Both the position numbers and the translations under genes were made by a program. Below, in pieces: positions 1-5,464 of a stretch of DNA of 5,601 nucleotides. Origin of the DNA: a virus (Duplodnaviria; Heunggongvirae; Uroviricota; Caudoviricetes); IMG/VR virus record IMGVR_UViG_3300015185_000041, positions 1-5,601 of that record; one strand, given 5' to 3'. The notes under the pieces are model-generated. The model saw nothing but the letters and a program-made list of their open reading frames with translations, was not told the origin of the DNA and searched no databases. How positions within the stretch are numbered: the first letter of the stretch is position 1; each line of letters opens with the position of its first letter.

Positions 1-202
1 CCTCATTTCCCCTTAACGCCGGGGTAGCGGAACAAAAACCTGCTGCATAGTTATTAAAGTTGAACCCTGCCGTCATGTTCTTACGCCTCGGGCTGGCTAC
101 TTAACCCCTGACCACTGCCGGGTAACTCGAAGTATTGCCTGGCGTTCTGTGGGGCGGGGTGGGTTGATGAATGAACAATACCACTACTATTTAATTATGT
201 AA

Positions 203-215
203 ATAGCAGTGCTAT
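203..215. promoter_or_regulatory. OL-like operator: perfect 13-bp palindrome ATAGCA-G-TGCTAT
   Basis: Same palindrome family as the two sites in the repressor/cro intergenic region (1301-1313 and 1326-1338). It lies just past the terminator of the repressor operon, the position of OL in lambda. Confidence 0.5.
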
Positions 216-227
216 TATCGTGGCAAG

Positions 228-250
228 AAAAAAACCACCCGAAGGTGGTT
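228..250 (-). terminator. Intrinsic terminator closing the leftward regulator-antitoxin-toxin operon
   Basis: On the minus strand the RNA reads AACCACC-UUCG-GGUGGUU followed by a U run (plus-strand A run 228-234). GC-rich stem with a UUCG tetraloop, 15 bp past the toxin stop codon (265-267). Confidence 0.8.
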
Positions 251-264
251 GTTGACAGGAAGGA

Positions 265-555
265 TTAACAGGTTTTGTTTGGATACTGTCTTCGTGAGTG
301 AACTACATTTACGATCTCGATGTTAGATGCTGTTACTCGGTAAAGTATTATGTAGTTAGGATGAGTCACTATCTCACGAAGACTTGGAACTCTTTCGCTC
401 GGTGGGTACAGATAAGGGTGTTCAGTAAGTGACAAAACTGATGTTTCAATGCGTATTTTTAGTCTACGTGCAGCGGGAGGGTTTTCCTTAGCAATATAGG
501 CTACGATCTGACGTAAATCATCACGTGCAGAAGGTAGCCATAAAATGGGCAGCAT
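265..555 (-). CDS. parE: ParE/RelE-superfamily type II toxin (96 aa)
   Basis: Size and motifs (LPILWLPSARDDL..., ...HPNYIILYRV..., ...IEIVNVVHSRRQYP) fit ParE-family toxins. Its ATG shares one base with the TAA stop of the upstream antitoxin ORF (TAATG), the typical antitoxin-then-toxin coupling. Confidence 0.75.
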   Translation of the reverse strand: MLPILWLPSARDDLRQIVAYIAKENPPAARRLKIRIETSVLSLTEHPYLYPPSERVPSLREIVTHPNYIILYRVTASNIEIVNVVHSRRQYPNKTC

Positions 556-746
556 TACTCACTCCTGTTCGTTGCAGCTAATTGAGCAATAAGGTTTTCC
601 ATTTCAGCCATTACTTCGTCATGTGGAATTGCAGGACGGGGATCTGAGAGGCTTGCTGCCACTTTGGTTCGCAACCATTCGTTATAGCTGTTTTCTTGTT
701 CGACTGTTTCAAATTCAGAAATTATCGGGGAAAGGGCTGTACTCAT
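555..746 (-). CDS. paaA: Small type II antitoxin (63 aa), PaaA/ParD-like
   Basis: 63-aa ORF directly upstream of and coupled to the ParE-like toxin. Strong RBS (GGAGG, about 7-nt spacer). It resembles, from memory, the PaaA antitoxins of PaaR-PaaA-ParE systems; the gene symbol is a recollection, not a search result. Confidence 0.6.
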   Translation of the reverse strand: MSTALSPIISEFETVEQENSYNEWLRTKVAASLSDPRPAIPHDEVMAEMENLIAQLAATNRSE

Positions 747-763
747 GTTTTTACCTCCTCAGA

Positions 764-1264
764 TTAGGCGCGACGACCCTTTTGCGCAGCTAGCCATCGC
801 GCAACGATTTCTTCAATTGATTCTTTTTTCTCCTTCATTTCCTTAAGCATTTTCTCTTTATCTTCTTTGGGGAAAGCCCTGAACGTCTGGAGCAAATCCC
901 GCTCCATGGGGTCTATATTAAACGGAAGTTCGTTTTCCGATTGTTCCATATCTGCAGATATAGTGACAACATTGTCCTCCCCAGATTCTTGGGGATACAT
1001 CCTTACAATTTGTAACAACTCGGCCATATCTGGTCTGATTGACTCGGGAGGAACTTGCAGCAACCCTGCGAACTTGATAACAGCCTCAAGATTTAAAGGT
1101 GTCTGACCATTTAGATAATGGCTTACAGCTCCCTGTGTCGAAAATCCCAGAATTTCTGCCGCACGCTCTTGGGTTAACCCTAGTTGATTTTTTTTCGCCG
1201 TCCAGATTTCTTTCAGTCTCTGGGCGGCTTGCAGGTCGATCTCTGACAGGGATTTTCTTTTCAT
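764..1264 (-). CDS. HTH (XRE/Cro-CI family) regulator, prophage repressor-like and PaaR-like; no S24 peptidase domain (166 aa)
   Basis: Helix-turn-helix motif LGLTQERAAEILGFSTQGAVSHYLNG in the N-terminal half. The C-terminal half is acidic and lysine-rich and lacks an Ala-Gly cleavage site or Ser/Lys peptidase motifs. It faces a cro-like gene across an operator-bearing intergenic region and sits 17 bp upstream of the antitoxin on the same strand. Confidence 0.75.
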   Translation of the reverse strand: MKRKSLSEIDLQAAQRLKEIWTAKKNQLGLTQERAAEILGFSTQGAVSHYLNGQTPLNLEAVIKFAGLLQVPPESIRPDMAELLQIVRMYPQESGEDNVVTISADMEQSENELPFNIDPMERDLLQTFRAFPKEDKEKMLKEMKEKKESIEEIVARWLAAQKGRRA

Positions 1265-1371
1265 ACCTTCAATTCTAATAAGATTATTAATCTCTTTGAA
1301 ATAGTGATGCTATTTACTTTTAAAAATAACAATGCTATTAATGATCGTGATGACATCACATGAGGTGAACA
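1265..1371. promoter_or_regulatory. Divergent immunity control region (OR-like operators with candidate PR and PRM promoters)
   Basis: Operator-like palindromes ATAGTG-A-TGCTAT (1301-1313) and ATAACA-A-TGCTAT (1326-1338). Candidate rightward promoter: -35 TTTACT (1313-1318), 17-bp spacer, -10 TATTAAT (1336-1342). Candidate leftward promoter on the minus strand: -35 TTCAAA (plus 1295-1300), 17-bp spacer, -10 TAGAAT (plus 1272-1277), which would start the transcript at or near the repressor AUG. Two further palindromes: TAATAA-GA-TTATTA (1276-1289) and GTGATG-A-CATCAC (1347-1359). Confidence 0.55.
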
Positions 1372-1647
1372 ATGAATCTTGGAGAATATTTGCATCATTC
1401 CGGTATAACTCAGAAGCATTTTGCTGAAATTGTTGGGGTAACCCAAGGGATGGTAAGCCATGTCATTACCGGACGGGCGAAACTTACGGGGAAAAAAATT
1501 TTACGCTGGTGCGAAGCAACAGGCTGGATAGTAACTCCGCACGAGATTGATGGCAGTACTTATCCCAACCCAACCGACGGCTTACCTGTCGAGTATCAGG
1601 CTAACACACAACCAGAGGCGGGGGTGATTCATGAAAATCAAGCATGA
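1372..1647 (+). CDS. Cro-like HTH regulator, YdaS family (91 aa)
   Basis: Helix-turn-helix motif (ITQKHFAEIVGVTQGMVSHVITG), RBS GAGGTG upstream, divergent from the repressor across the operator region; small size and position match cro. Confidence 0.7.
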   Translation: MNLGEYLHHSGITQKHFAEIVGVTQGMVSHVITGRAKLTGKKILRWCEATGWIVTPHEIDGSTYPNPTDGLPVEYQANTQPEAGVIHENQA

Positions 1648-2056
1648 ACACATCCGCATGGCAATGAATGCCTGGGCGCATCCGGACGGCGAAAAAGTAC
1701 CGGCTGCGAAAATTACCAAAGCGTATTTCGAGCTGGGAATGACGTTCCCGGAACTGTATGACGACAGCCATCCGGAAGCCCTGGCCCGTAATACCCAGAA
1801 AATTTTCCGTTGGCTGGATAAAGACACCCCTGATGCTGTTGAAAAAATGCAGGCTCTGTTACCGGCGATCGAAAAGGCGATGCCGCCTTTGCTGGTGGCC
1901 CGTATGCGCAGCCACAGTTCTGAATATTACCGTGAGATCGTCGAACGGAGGGATCGGCTGGTGAAGGATGTCGATGATTTTGTTGCGTCAGCGGTTGTTT
2001 TGTATGACCAGATGAATCGCGGCGGCCCGGCAGGGAATGCTGTGGTGATGCACTAA
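1631..2056 (+). CDS. ydaT: YdaT-family protein (CII-like regulator position, 141 aa)
   Basis: Overlaps the cro-like gene by 17 nt and occupies the cII slot. Size and N-terminus (MKIKHEHI...) match my recollection of Rac-prophage YdaT; the name is from memory only. Confidence 0.55.
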   Translation: MKIKHEHIRMAMNAWAHPDGEKVPAAKITKAYFELGMTFPELYDDSHPEALARNTQKIFRWLDKDTPDAVEKMQALLPAIEKAMPPLLVARMRSHSSEYYREIVERRDRLVKDVDDFVASAVVLYDQMNRGGPAGNAVVMH

Positions 2057-2063
2057 AAGCACG

Positions 2064-3041
2064 GTGTTCGGGGGTTTTATGAGCAGCAAGCTTCATGGTC
2101 TTGTCTGGGAAGGGTGCGCCTTCACCGGCATGATCTTATCCAGGGTGGCGGTTATGGCCCGTCTTGCAGACTACAGCAATGACGAGGGCGTGTCATGGCC
2201 TGCCATTGAAACTATCCGGCGTCAGATCGGTGCAAGAAGTGAATCCACAGTGAAATCGGCTATTGCAGAACTGGCGAAAGAGGGCTGGCTGACGAAGGAA
2301 GAGCGTAAGGTCGGTGGGCGTAATGTAAGCAATATCTATCGGCTTAATGTGGAAAAACTCGAAGCAGCTGCGGCGGCGGCGCGTGAGTCATATAAACCGA
2401 AAAGAAAAATTAGCCCGGCAAAAAATGACCCGTTAACAGTTGACCCGTCAAATATTGACCCCTCAACGGTTGACCCGTCAAATTTTGATGGATCAACTGT
2501 TGATAAAAAACTGCCGATTAGGGGGCCGATGATTGACCCCGATCCGTCAGTATTAAAACCTGATCCGTCAGATAAAAGATCTTCTTGTCCGGACGCTTCG
2601 CAACCGGACCCGCAGACGGCTGAACAGGATTTTTTAACCCGACACCCTGACGCGGTTGTGTTCAGTGCGAAAAAACGCCAGTGGGGAAGTCAGGAAGATT
2701 TGGTGTGCGCACAGTGGATCTGGGGACGAATCGTGAGTCTTTACGAGCAGGCGGCCAGCTATGATGGCGAGATCACTAGACCGAAAGAACCCAACTGGAC
2801 AGCATGGGCCAATGACGTTCGCACAATGCGGATGCTGGATGGCAGAACTCACAGACAAATTTGTGAAATGTTTGGGCGTCTCCAGCGGGATTCGTTCTGG
2901 GTAAAAAACATCATGAGTCCGGCAAAACTCCGGGAAAAATGGGATGAACTGGTTATCCGCCTGGGGCGTTCGCCTGCGCAGCGTTGCGTGAATCACATTT
3001 CTGAACCGGACACTGAAATTCCGCCGGGCTTCAGGGGGTAA
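2064..3041 (+). CDS. Replication initiator / replisome organizer: N-terminal winged-HTH, iteron-encoded linker, C-terminal DnaT-like domain (325 aa)
   Basis: The ORF opens at GTG 2064; ATG 2079 (MSSKLHG...) preceded by GGGGG is an alternative start. The repetitive linker (DPLTVDPSNIDPSTVDPSNFDGSTVD) is encoded by tandem DNA repeats, as ori-lambda lies inside O. The C-terminal tail ...VNHISEPDTEIPPGFRG closely matches the recalled E. coli DnaT tail ...VNTVSEPDSQIPPGFRG. Confidence 0.75.
   Translation: MFGGFMSSKLHGLVWEGCAFTGMILSRVAVMARLADYSNDEGVSWPAIETIRRQIGARSESTVKSAIAELAKEGWLTKEERKVGGRNVSNIYRLNVEKLEAAAAAARESYKPKRKISPAKNDPLTVDPSNIDPSTVDPSNFDGSTVDKKLPIRGPMIDPDPSVLKPDPSDKRSSCPDASQPDPQTAEQDFLTRHPDAVVFSAKKRQWGSQEDLVCAQWIWGRIVSLYEQAASYDGEITRPKEPNWTAWANDVRTMRMLDGRTHRQICEMFGRLQRDSFWVKNIMSPAKLREKWDELVIRLGRSPAQRCVNHISEPDTEIPPGFRG
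2426..2515. repeat. Putative replication-origin iterons: five to six tandem 15-bp repeats (core TTGAC-CC-GTCAA)
   Basis: Head-to-tail 15-mers: TGACCCGTTAACAGT, TGACCCGTCAAATAT, TGACCCCTCAACGGT, TGACCCGTCAAATTT, TGATGGATCAACTGT, then a degenerate TGATAAAAAACTGCC. Related CCGTCAG copies occur at about 2541-2570. An A-rich tract (about 2395-2425) flanks them on the left. Confidence 0.7.
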
Positions 3042-5257: not shown

Positions 5258-5460
5258 TTGCGGGGAAATCTTAGTTAAGTAGAATGACTGCGGGTGCTTG
5301 AGGCTATCTGTCTCAGGCATGAACACCAAAAGGCAGATAGAGAAAAGCCCCAGTTAACATTACGCGTCCTGCAAGACGCTTAACATTAATCTGAGGCCAT
5401 ATCTATGCGACACATAGAGATTAGCCTCTTACGGACCGAAAGGTCAAGGAGAAGCAGGCT
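5258..5460 (+). promoter_or_regulatory. Hok mRNA leader: candidate promoter and structured 5' UTR
   Basis: Candidate promoter: -35 TTGCGG (5258-5263), 16-bp spacer, -10 TAGAAT (5280-5285). 10-bp stem at 5304-5313 paired with 5331-5340, 17-nt loop. Hairpin 5402-5418 sequesters the AUG of the short upstream ORF. Confidence 0.4.
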
Positions 5461-5464
5461 ATGA
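5405..5464 (+). CDS. Short upstream ORF (19 aa) coupled to hok; possible Mok analogue
   Basis: ATG 5405 with GAGG 8 nt upstream; TGA stop overlaps the hok ATG (ATGA). Product MRHIEISLLRTERSRRSRL. Confidence 0.3.
   Translation: MRHIEISLLRTERSRRSRL

What the first reader, a model, noticed from the sequence alone, without database searches (positions are those of the whole stretch)
203..1338. The same 13-bp operator palindrome appears at two loci flanking the repressor operon
ATAGCA-G-TGCTAT (203-215, perfect), ATAGTG-A-TGCTAT (1301-1313) and ATAACA-A-TGCTAT (1326-1338) share the consensus ATA(G/A)(C/T)(A/G)-N-TGCTAT. Two sit in the repressor/cro intergenic region with centres 25 bp apart; the third lies about 1.1 kb away, just beyond the operon terminator. 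This mirrors the OR/OL arrangement of lambda and predicts a repressor-controlled leftward promoter near 200-230 (a TTGCCA -35-like hexamer lies at 221-226 on the minus strand) and possibly long-range looping.
Basis: seen in the sequence. Interest (0 to 1): 0.5.

Follow-up and report, generated by a model that had tools for sequence, protein, structure and literature searches.

The report
Prophage repressor operators at PR and PL
The repeated palindrome is real and is most likely the operator set of a lambda-like E. coli prophage: two repressor-binding sites at each of two promoters. It is a new sequence variant of a well-known switch, not a new mechanism.

Summary
All three 13-bp palindromes are at the stated coordinates, and shuffled sequence gives none. 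It lies 25 bp from 203-215, the same spacing as the right-hand pair, and it is a perfect ATAGCACTGCTAT in related prophages. The window is the immunity region of a lambdoid E. coli prophage. It carries a 166-aa repressor, with a DNA-binding domain like lambda CI and a C-terminal domain like PaaR2 and DicA. PaaA/ParE toxin-antitoxin genes follow in the same operon, then a terminator, then a leftward promoter. Cro-like ydaS and cII-like ydaT lie on the right. The left and right promoters have the same layout: operator, -35, 17-bp spacer and -10 overlapped by the second operator. All four sites persist in 52 of 53 related loci (the 53rd contig is truncated). Both operator blocks are replaced, together with the repressor's DNA-binding domain, in the heteroimmune prophage CP-933P. 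There, PL repression by PaaR2 and YdaS was shown experimentally (PMC8630535). Binding and looping remain untested here. Verdict: a new member of a known kind, of low interest.

The parts
1..168 (-). Predicted 5' leader of the leftward early operon. In full-length copies this operon runs ydfA (DUF1391), ydfB, ydfC, dicB, exonuclease, xis, int. The ydfA start codon lies just outside the window.
   Evidence: Annotation of the identical prophage in L001. The leader is 90-100% identical to CP-933P per 40-bp bin up to position 160, then identity collapses. It is not unusually structured (z = +1.04).
175..203 (-). PL-like promoter: -35 TTTACA (203..198), 17-bp spacer, -10 TATTGT (180..175) with an upstream TG. 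The predicted start is near 168.
   Evidence: Promoter scan. Both hexamers are conserved in the variants. The layout matches PR element for element, with 29 of 44 bases identical against a next-best 24. Prediction only; no start-site data.
176..192 (.). OL proximal operator CAATACCACTACTATTT (core 178-190). It overlaps the PL spacer and -10.
   Evidence: It is a perfect ATAGCACTGCTAT in L003, L009 and L011.
201..217 (.). OL distal operator AAATAGCAGTGCTATTA (core 203-215, a perfect palindrome). It abuts the PL -35.
233..250 (-). Intrinsic terminator of the repressor-paaA-parE operon: a 7-bp stem, a UUCG loop and a run of seven U.
   Evidence: -10.4 kcal/mol, z = -2.34. Conserved in all variants.
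265..555 (-). ParE-family toxin (96 aa).
   Evidence: Pfam ParE_toxin E = 6.6e-18. ParE2 structure 5cw7_B, E = 5e-36.
555..746 (-). PaaA-family antitoxin (63 aa).
   Evidence: Pfam PaaA2 E = 1e-21. PaaA2 structure 3zbe, E = 2e-22.
764..1264 (-). Immunity repressor (166 aa). The N-terminal HTH domain resembles the lambda CI N-terminal domain. The C-terminal domain resembles PaaR2 and DicA. There is no S24 peptidase domain.
   Evidence: PDB lambda CI chains, E about 1e-9 over residues 2-115. Pfam finds only HTH_3. 47% identity to the PaaR2 C-terminal half. The DicA model matches residues 107-162 below its cutoff.
1272..1300 (-). PRM-like promoter: -35 TTCAAA (1300..1295), 17-bp spacer, -10 TAGAAT (1277..1272). 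The ATG at 1264 lies 8 nt after the -10, so the repressor mRNA is predicted to be leaderless.
   Evidence: 1264 is the first possible start in its frame. The N-terminal arm aligns with lambda CI. Leaderless paaR2 was shown in CP-933P (PMC8630535). Prediction only here.
1299..1315 (.). OR distal operator AAATAGTGATGCTATTT (core 1301-1313). It sits between the PRM -35 and the PR -35, centred about -42/-43 from the predicted PRM start.
1313..1341 (+). PR-like promoter: -35 TTTACT (1313-1318), 17-bp spacer, TG-extended -10 TATTAA (1336-1341). It drives ydaS and ydaT.
   Evidence: Read from the sequence. It scores 8 of 12, below the scan's reporting threshold. Its layout matches PL. Conserved in variants.
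1324..1340 (.). OR proximal operator AAATAACAATGCTATTA (core 1326-1338). It overlaps the PR spacer and -10.
   Evidence: It becomes the perfect palindrome ATAACAATGTTAT in L003, L008 and L010.
1372..1647 (+). Cro-like regulator (YdaS type, 91 aa).
   Evidence: Pfam HTH_3 and phrog_35. 42% identical to CP-933P YdaS; the DNA is alignable only from position 1557.
1631..2056 (+). CII-like regulator (YdaT, 141 aa). A YdaT box lies at 1624-1641.
   Evidence: Pfam YdaT_toxin. phrog_163, CII-like activator, E = 3e-48. Box found.

Best explanation
The palindromes are the operators of a lambda-type immunity switch in a lambdoid E. coli prophage. There are four 17-bp sites with consensus wAATAGCA-N-TGCTATTw, arranged as two pairs with centres 25 bp apart. 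One pair (OR, 1299-1315 and 1324-1340) lies between the divergent repressor and cro-like genes. The other pair (OL, 176-192 and 201-217) lies just past the terminator of the repressor-paaA-parE operon.

Inferred mechanism: dimers of the 166-aa repressor bind both pairs through its lambda-CI-like N-terminal domain. Each pair covers an extended -10 promoter in the same way. The proximal site overlaps the spacer and -10, and the distal site abuts the -35. Repressor binding therefore shuts off PR (ydaS/cro, ydaT/cII, replication genes) and PL (the ydfA-ydfB-dicB-exo-xis-int operon). The distal OR site also abuts the -35 of PRM, at about -42/-43, which would let bound repressor stimulate its own leaderless transcript, as at lambda OR2. 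The Cro-like YdaS probably competes for the same sites.

What is shown here: the sites, their spacing and symmetry, the matching promoter layout, their conservation, and the fact that both blocks are swapped together with the repressor's DNA-binding domain in a heteroimmune relative. What is inferred: binding itself, the direction of regulation, PRM activation, leaderless translation, and any OL-OR looping through the PaaR2-like C-terminal domain.
For: 1. Statistics. The fourth site is the best non-training hit and sits at exactly the OR spacing. Only these four sites score above 13 bits in 100 kb of prophage and host, and only these four reach 12 bits in the 18.9-kb locus L001.

2. Layout. 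PL on the minus strand and PR on the plus strand have the same layout: 17-bp site, TTAC, spacer, 17-bp site overlapping a TG-extended -10.

3. Conservation. 52 of 53 related loci keep all four sites, in 27 distinct combinations, with repressors 78-100% identical; the 53rd contig (L029) is truncated. Positions 2-5 (AATA) never vary in 72 half-sites. Positions 7 and 8 vary only by transitions. The central base is free. In the O145:H28 variant the OR proximal site becomes the perfect palindrome ATAACAATGTTAT.

4. Immunity-specific co-replacement. Against CP-933P, identity is 90-100% at 1-160, 65-92% across the toxin-antitoxin genes and mostly 75-100% at 1561-2040. It falls to 15-55% in two blocks only: 161-280 (PL/OL and the terminator) and 881-1560 (repressor N-terminal domain, OR, cro N-terminus). 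CP-933P carries its own different repeat at both places and no hit to this motif.

5. The repressor's N-terminal domain matches the lambda CI DNA-binding domain, including the N-terminal arm. Relatives with 52-54% identical N-terminal domains have ATAG...CTAT-type palindromes in their own OR. In Rac-SA53 two such palindromes are centred exactly 25 bp apart.

6. Experimental precedent. In CP-933P, PaaR2 and YdaS footprint the paaR2-ydaS intergenic region, and both repress a PL promoter beyond parE2 about 100-fold. paaR2 is also leaderless (PMC8630535). In Qin, DicA represses dicBp upstream of ydfA, and operators are described at both dicCp and dicBp (PMC10448788).
Against: There are no binding, footprint or start-site data for this immunity type. 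No paper in the searchable library contains these operator sequences.

Several invariant operator positions overlap promoter hexamers, so part of the conservation could reflect promoter constraint. The related loci are mostly close relatives, so conservation alone is weak evidence. The PRM region between the sites is equally conserved.

The regular expressions used to locate the OL sites required some of the invariant bases. The OR sites were extracted without such constraints.

The promoter-proximal OL site is the weakest of the four in this particular window. No convincing third site exists on either side; the best candidate, centred at 1284, scores about 5-6 bits. Negative autoregulation as in lambda is therefore not explained.

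Only about 2% of a host genome was scanned.
Confidence: 0.85

Rival explanations
1. The sites are mainly the targets of the Cro-like YdaS protein, or of YdaS alone, and the 166-aa repressor recognises a different sequence in the same regions.
For: YdaS also carries an HTH. Its N-terminal half is swapped together with the operators relative to CP-933P. In CP-933P both proteins footprint the same region and both repress PL.
Against: Homologues of the repressor's N-terminal domain, in phages whose OR was read here (L006 and L007), have similar ATAG...CTAT palindromes. No other repeated symmetric element is shared by the OL and OR regions. In lambdoid switches the repressor and Cro normally share operators (established knowledge), so this is an addition more than a rival.
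Confidence: 0.08
2. PL and PR are duplicated promoter cassettes. Their similarity, palindromes included, reflects common descent or gene conversion between two promoters, not protein binding.
For: The two regions share 29 of 44 bases in the same layout. In L012 the distal OL and distal OR sites share an identical 13-bp core, ATAGCATCGCTAT, which suggests concerted change.
Against: Promoter duplication does not explain dyad symmetry inside each site, four times over. Nor does it explain the pattern of variation (invariant arms, free centre, symmetric changes) or the replacement of both blocks together with the repressor's DNA-binding domain in CP-933P.
Confidence: 0.04
3. The left palindrome pair forms a hairpin, acting as a transcription terminator or RNA element at the end of the repressor operon, or it drives a rightward antisense promoter. 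It is not an operator for a leftward promoter.
For: The terminator scan lists a 12-pair hairpin at 211..182 on the minus strand. The two sites are 88% complementary to each other. A rightward TTTAAT-17-TATTAT promoter with a TG extension can be read at 190-218.
Against: The hairpin has only 3 G-C pairs and no T-run. It also lies downstream of a good terminator at 233-250. The rightward -35 is not conserved in variants, whereas the leftward hexamers are. The ydfA-dicB operon needs a promoter here, and its equivalents in CP-933P and Qin are repressor-controlled leftward promoters.
Confidence: 0.03

Closest known systems
CP-933P (Sp12) immunity region of E. coli O157:H7: paaR2-paaA2-parE2, ydaS-ydaT, with PR, PRM and PL (Jurenas et al. 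2021, PMC8630535)
   Same: The gene order is the same: parE, paaA and the repressor leftward, and ydaS and ydaT rightward. The PaaA and ParE proteins are homologous. The repressor's C-terminal domain is homologous (47% identity). The ydfA leader is 90-100% identical per 40-bp bin, and ydaT is close. A PL promoter with operators lies just beyond parE, and its hexamers resemble those of PR. The repressor gene is leaderless or predicted to be.
   Different: The repressor's DNA-binding domain, the N-terminal half of Cro and both operator blocks are unrelated in sequence. CP-933P uses a different repeat and is described as having three operators per side. Here there are two clear sites per side. 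This window is therefore a heteroimmune relative, and nothing has been tested on it experimentally.
Bacteriophage lambda cI/cro switch with OR1-3 and OL1-3
   Same: The repressor's N-terminal domain is homologous, including the N-terminal arm. The operators are 17 bp, with spacing of about 2.4 helical turns. PR and PRM are divergent, with predicted starts about 84 bp apart. One operator abuts the PRM -35. A terminator lies between the repressor operon and OL/PL. Accessory genes follow the repressor in the same operon (rexAB in lambda, a toxin-antitoxin pair here). The lambda geometry is from established knowledge and was not recomputed.
   Different: There are two sites per side, not three. 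There is no S24 autopeptidase domain, so RecA-mediated cleavage is not expected. The OL-OR distance is 1.1 kb, against about 2.4 kb in lambda. The operator sequence is unrelated to TATCACCGC.
Qin prophage dicA-dicC locus and dicBp (PMC10448788; PMC3441716)
   Same: The leftward promoter sits upstream of a ydfA-ydfB-ydfC-dicB type operon. It is controlled by a short, non-cleavable repressor that is transcribed in the same direction. The repressor's C-terminus matches the C-terminal part of the DicA model. Operators are described at both dicCp and dicBp.
   Different: The repressor is not a DicA-family member (31 bits against a cutoff of 101). Qin is not described as carrying a paaA-parE pair between the repressor and dicBp (from memory, not tested here). 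The operator sequences were not compared.

Membership tests
Lambdoid immunity switch (OR/OL type) | Divergent repressor and cro-like genes, with repeated dyad-symmetric sites overlapping back-to-back promoters | tested here: met
   Repressor at 764-1264 (-), cro-like gene at 1372-1647 (+). Two 17-bp sites overlap PR and abut the PRM -35.
Lambdoid immunity switch (OR/OL type) | A second set of the same operators at a leftward early promoter beyond the repressor operon | tested here: met
   Sites at 176-192 and 201-217 overlap TTTACA-17-TATTGT on the minus strand, downstream of the terminator at 233-250. The ydfA-dicB-exo-xis-int operon lies downstream.
Lambdoid immunity switch (OR/OL type) | Operators and the repressor's DNA-binding domain are exchanged together between heteroimmune relatives | tested here: met
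   The identity profile against CP-933P drops only at 161-280 and 881-1560. This motif does not occur in CP-933P.
Lambdoid immunity switch (OR/OL type) | Three operators per side (OR1-3, OL1-3) | tested here: not met
   Only two sites per side score above 13 bits. The best third candidate, centred at 1284, scores about 5-6 bits.
Lambdoid immunity switch (OR/OL type) | Repressor with a LexA/S24-type self-cleaving C-terminal domain | tested here: not met
   Pfam finds only HTH_3 and HTH_31. The C-terminus aligns with PaaR2 and DicA. Some lambdoid repressors, DicA among them, also lack this domain.
Lambdoid immunity switch (OR/OL type) | The repressor binds the sites and represses PR and PL | not testable with these tools
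   This needs EMSA or footprinting and reporter assays. Such experiments have been done only for the heteroimmune CP-933P (PMC8630535).
PaaR-PaaA-ParE three-component module | A PaaA-family antitoxin and a ParE-family toxin downstream of a regulator, in one operon | tested here: met
   PF21217 E = 1e-21 and PF05016 E = 6.6e-18. PDB matches to PaaA2 and ParE2. The genes overlap or lie close together, with a single terminator after parE.
PaaR-PaaA-ParE three-component module | The regulator is homologous to PaaR2 over its whole length | tested here: not met
   Only residues 91-166 align with PaaR2 (47% identity). The N-terminal DNA-binding domain is of the lambda CI type instead.
PaaR-PaaA-ParE three-component module | Leaderless repressor transcript from PRM | tested here: inconclusive
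   The -10 TAGAAT ends 8 nt before the first possible start codon. No start-site data are available.
DicA family repressor (NCBIfam NF007257) | Whole-protein score above the curated cutoff | tested here: not met
   31.2 bits against a cutoff of 101. Only the C-terminal 55 residues match.

The most novel reading that the evidence does not exclude
A lambda-CI-type DNA-binding domain has been fused in nature to the small DicA/PaaR2-type oligomerisation domain. This would give a non-SOS-cleavable repressor that runs a minimal switch with two operators per side. In this reading, four dimers on OL and OR form an octamer-bridged 1.1-kb loop that encloses the repressor and toxin-antitoxin operon. Autoregulation and induction, presumably through an antirepressor, would then work without OR3 or OL3. 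That would make it a compact natural test case for which parts of the lambda circuit are dispensable.
Probability: 0.2. Interest if true: 0.4.

Novelty: new member of a known kind. Interest (0 to 1): 0.2.

Why it matters
This defines the operator sequence, the promoter layout and the mosaic boundaries of one immunity type among the Rac/Qin/CP-933P-like prophages. The type is found in about 70 of 5,426 complete E. coli genomes, including O104:H4 strains. That helps annotate such prophages, predict superinfection immunity groups, and anticipate when the toxic dicB and ParE functions are silenced. It does not change the understanding of how such switches work. The same architecture has been shown experimentally in CP-933P and described for Qin and lambda.

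Tried and rejected
TTGCCA at 221-226 is rejected. It follows the terminator's T-run and is broken by a 6-bp indel and substitutions in variants.
- **Third operator.** The position equivalent to lambda OR3 holds a perfect palindrome, TAATAA-GA-TTATTA (1276-1289). It matches the operator matrix only weakly (about 5-6 bits) and has no counterpart at OL. It is left as a possibility.
- **Left pair as a hairpin terminator.** Rejected: few G-C pairs and no T-run.
- **Structured RNA or a known RNA family in the 1-168 leader.** The fold z-score is +1.04, and Rfam gave no hit there.
- **Repressor relatives in one genome per species.** The genome-contig scan confirmed no relatives, so cross-species evidence is missing. 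The IMG/VR scan gave 46 loci.
- **Literature.** A search for the four operator strings found no papers. The biophysics paper on PaaR2 octamers (PMC6486494) is not held, so that property is cited second-hand from PMC8630535.
- **PaaA-ParE binding to a shared site in OR.** No sequence in OR is shared with CP-933P even though the toxin-antitoxin proteins are conserved. This idea has no support from sequence.
Full report
**What the window is**

The 5.6-kb window matches E. coli chromosomes, where it lies inside a lambdoid prophage. Two genomes cover 92% of the whole window at 97-99% identity. The immunity segment 140-1380 is 100% identical in NZ_CP023531, where the prophage sits between potB and potC. 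The OL block is also 100% identical in an O104:H4 strain. About 70 of 5,426 complete genomes carry this immunity region.

The genes, from left to right:
- a ParE-family toxin (265-555, minus strand);
- a PaaA-family antitoxin (555-746, minus strand);
- a 166-aa HTH repressor (764-1264, minus strand);
- a Cro-like YdaS-type protein (1372-1647, plus strand);
- a CII-like YdaT protein (1631-2056, plus strand);
- an O-like replication protein (2064-3041, plus strand).

In a full-length copy, the genes to the left of the window are ydfA (DUF1391), ydfB, ydfC, dicB, an exonuclease, xis and int, all leftward.

**The observation**

None of 200 shuffles contains the pattern ATARYRNTGCTAT.

A relaxed search finds a fourth site, ATACCACTACTAT, at 178-190. 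Its centre (184) is 25 bp from 209, which is the same as the 1307-to-1332 spacing on the right. With the 17-bp version of the matrix, 1 of 300 shuffles reaches its score anywhere in 5.6 kb. An independent repeat finder reports 177-193 and 200-216 as 88% complementary arms.

**Promoter layout**

The consensus scan finds a leftward promoter: TTTACA (203..198), 17 bp, TATTGT (180..175), with a TG extension. It also finds a leftward TTCAAA (1300..1295), 17 bp, TAGAAT (1277..1272).

Reading the plus strand at OR gives TTTACT (1313-1318), 17 bp, TG-extended TATTAA (1336-1341). This scores 8 of 12, just below the scan's threshold.

PL on the minus strand and PR on the plus strand have the same layout: 17-bp site, TTAC, spacer, then a 17-bp site overlapping the -10. 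They share 29 of 44 bases, against a next-best 24 elsewhere in the window. At both promoters the proximal operator covers the spacer and -10 (centre about -16), and the distal one abuts the -35 (centre about -41).

The distal OR site also abuts the -35 of the PRM-like promoter, at about -42/-43. From memory, that is the position lambda CI occupies at OR2 when it activates PRM.

The repressor's ATG at 1264 is the first possible start in its frame. It lies 8 nt after the -10, and the N-terminal arm aligns with that of lambda CI. A leaderless mRNA is therefore predicted, as shown for paaR2 and known for cI.

A good terminator (233-250, minus strand; z = -2.34) separates the repressor operon from OL.

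**Comparative evidence**

I collected 53 related loci: E. coli chromosomes and IMG/VR contigs. Their repressors are 78-100% identical to this one. All loci with intact flanks keep all four sites, in 27 distinct sequence combinations.

- In 72 distinct half-sites, positions 2-5 (AATA) never vary.
- Position 6 is mostly G. Positions 7 and 8 vary only by transitions (C/T and A/G).
- The central base is free.
- The consensus is wAATAGCA-N-TGCTATTw.
- The OR proximal site becomes the perfect palindrome ATAACAATGTTAT in some variants.

Two caveats apply. The loci are close relatives, and the outer operator bases overlap promoter hexamers. Conservation alone is therefore weak evidence.

The stronger test is the heteroimmune comparison. 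Against CP-933P of O157:H7 EDL933 (L002), per 40-bp bin:
- 1-160: 90-100% identity;
- toxin-antitoxin genes and the repressor's C-terminal region (281-880): 62-92%;
- 1561-2040: mostly 75-100%;
- 161-280 (PL/OL and the terminator): 35-52%;
- 881-1560 (repressor N-terminal domain, OR, cro N-terminus): 15-55%.

CP-933P has its own different repeat at both places and no match to this motif. The left mosaic boundary, at 161, coincides with the predicted PL start.

Phages whose repressors share a 52-54% identical N-terminal domain carry related palindromes in their own OR. Rac-SA53 has ATAGT-CAG-ACTAT and ATTAG-CCTCA-CTAAT with centres exactly 25 bp apart. Stx2 phage Lyz12581Vzw has AATAGTCTAGCTATT.

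**Specificity**

In 100 kb spanning the whole prophage and its host flanks, only the four sites score above 13 bits (20.7-25.6 bits; next best 12.5). A rough bound puts chance hits at the score of the weakest site at no more than a few per 5-Mb genome. A full-genome scan was not possible with these tools.

**What is already known**

Jurenas et al. 2021 (PMC8630535) worked on CP-933P and showed the following:
- PaaR2 and YdaS footprint the 97-bp paaR2-ydaS region.
- PR and PRM start sites were mapped.
- paaR2 is leaderless.
- A PL promoter beyond parE2, with OL operators and hexamers matching PR, is repressed about 100-fold by both proteins.
- PaaR2 octamerises in solution.

For Qin, DicA represses dicBp upstream of ydfA, and operators are described at both dicCp and dicBp. 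DicA is short, cannot be cleaved, and is countered by an antirepressor (PMC10448788).

The repressor here is a mosaic:
- the N-terminal domain resembles the lambda CI N-terminal domain (E about 1e-9);
- the C-terminal half is 47% identical to PaaR2 and matches the C-terminus of the DicA model below its cutoff;
- there is no S24 domain.

No paper in the searchable library contains these operator strings.

**Conclusion**

Looping is plausible by analogy only.

The feature is a heteroimmune member of a known and experimentally characterised architecture. Its differences from lambda are two sites per side and a non-cleavable repressor. At least the non-cleavable repressor is shared with already described relatives. 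I rate it a new member of a known kind, with interest about 0.2.

Noticed in passing
window 1624-1641: GTGATTCATGAAAATCAA matches the YdaT (CII-like) operator TTGATT-N6-AATCAA of CP-933P with one mismatch. It sits at the ydaS/ydaT junction, where the PRE-equivalent lies in CP-933P (PMC9986795).
   Followed up: partly
window 5292-5463: A hok/sok type I toxin-antitoxin locus. Rfam sok (RF01794) scores 106.7 bits, and the region is annotated hokD in the matching genome.
   Followed up: no
window 2405-2479 (continuing to about 2520): Direct repeats with a 15-bp period (TTGACCCGTCAA-like) lie inside the O-like replication gene. They are probably origin iterons, as in the lambda O gene.
   Followed up: no
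window 1-160 against L002 2188-2350: The leader of the ydfA-dicB operon is 90-100% identical per 40-bp bin between this prophage and the heteroimmune CP-933P, while the neighbouring toxin-antitoxin genes are only about 65-90% identical. The break at 161 coincides with the predicted PL start. The leader is not unusually structured.
   Followed up: partly
L040-L047 (IMG/VR loci), OL region: In the repressor group that is 78% identical, a poly-T run between the two OL sites varies in length. This gives centre-to-centre spacings of 24-28 bp, and so PL spacers of different lengths. It may be promoter tuning or decay.
   Followed up: no
window 1276-1289: A perfect palindrome, TAATAA-GA-TTATTA, covers the PRM spacer and -10, where lambda has OR3. 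It is only a weak match to the operator matrix and has no counterpart at OL. It could be a weak third operator, a site preferred by YdaS, or chance in AT-rich DNA.
   Followed up: partly
window 190-218, plus strand: Because the OL pair is itself symmetric, a rightward TG-extended promoter (TTTAAT-17-TATTAT), antisense to parE, can also be read. Its -35 is not conserved in variants.
   Followed up: partly
window 764-1264 (repressor): The repressor is a natural domain mosaic. Its N-terminal domain is 52-54% identical to the cI N-terminal domains of some Stx2a phages, which carry S24 C-terminal domains, and to the Rac-SA53 'dicA' protein. Its C-terminus is of the PaaR2/DicA type.
   Followed up: partly
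L062 and L063 (NZ_CP023531 2,067,700-2,116,000): The prophage carrying this immunity region looks nearly complete, with terminase, capsid, tail, lysis, Q-like antiterminator, int and xis genes. The portal gene is frameshifted. It is inserted between potB and potC.
   Followed up: no
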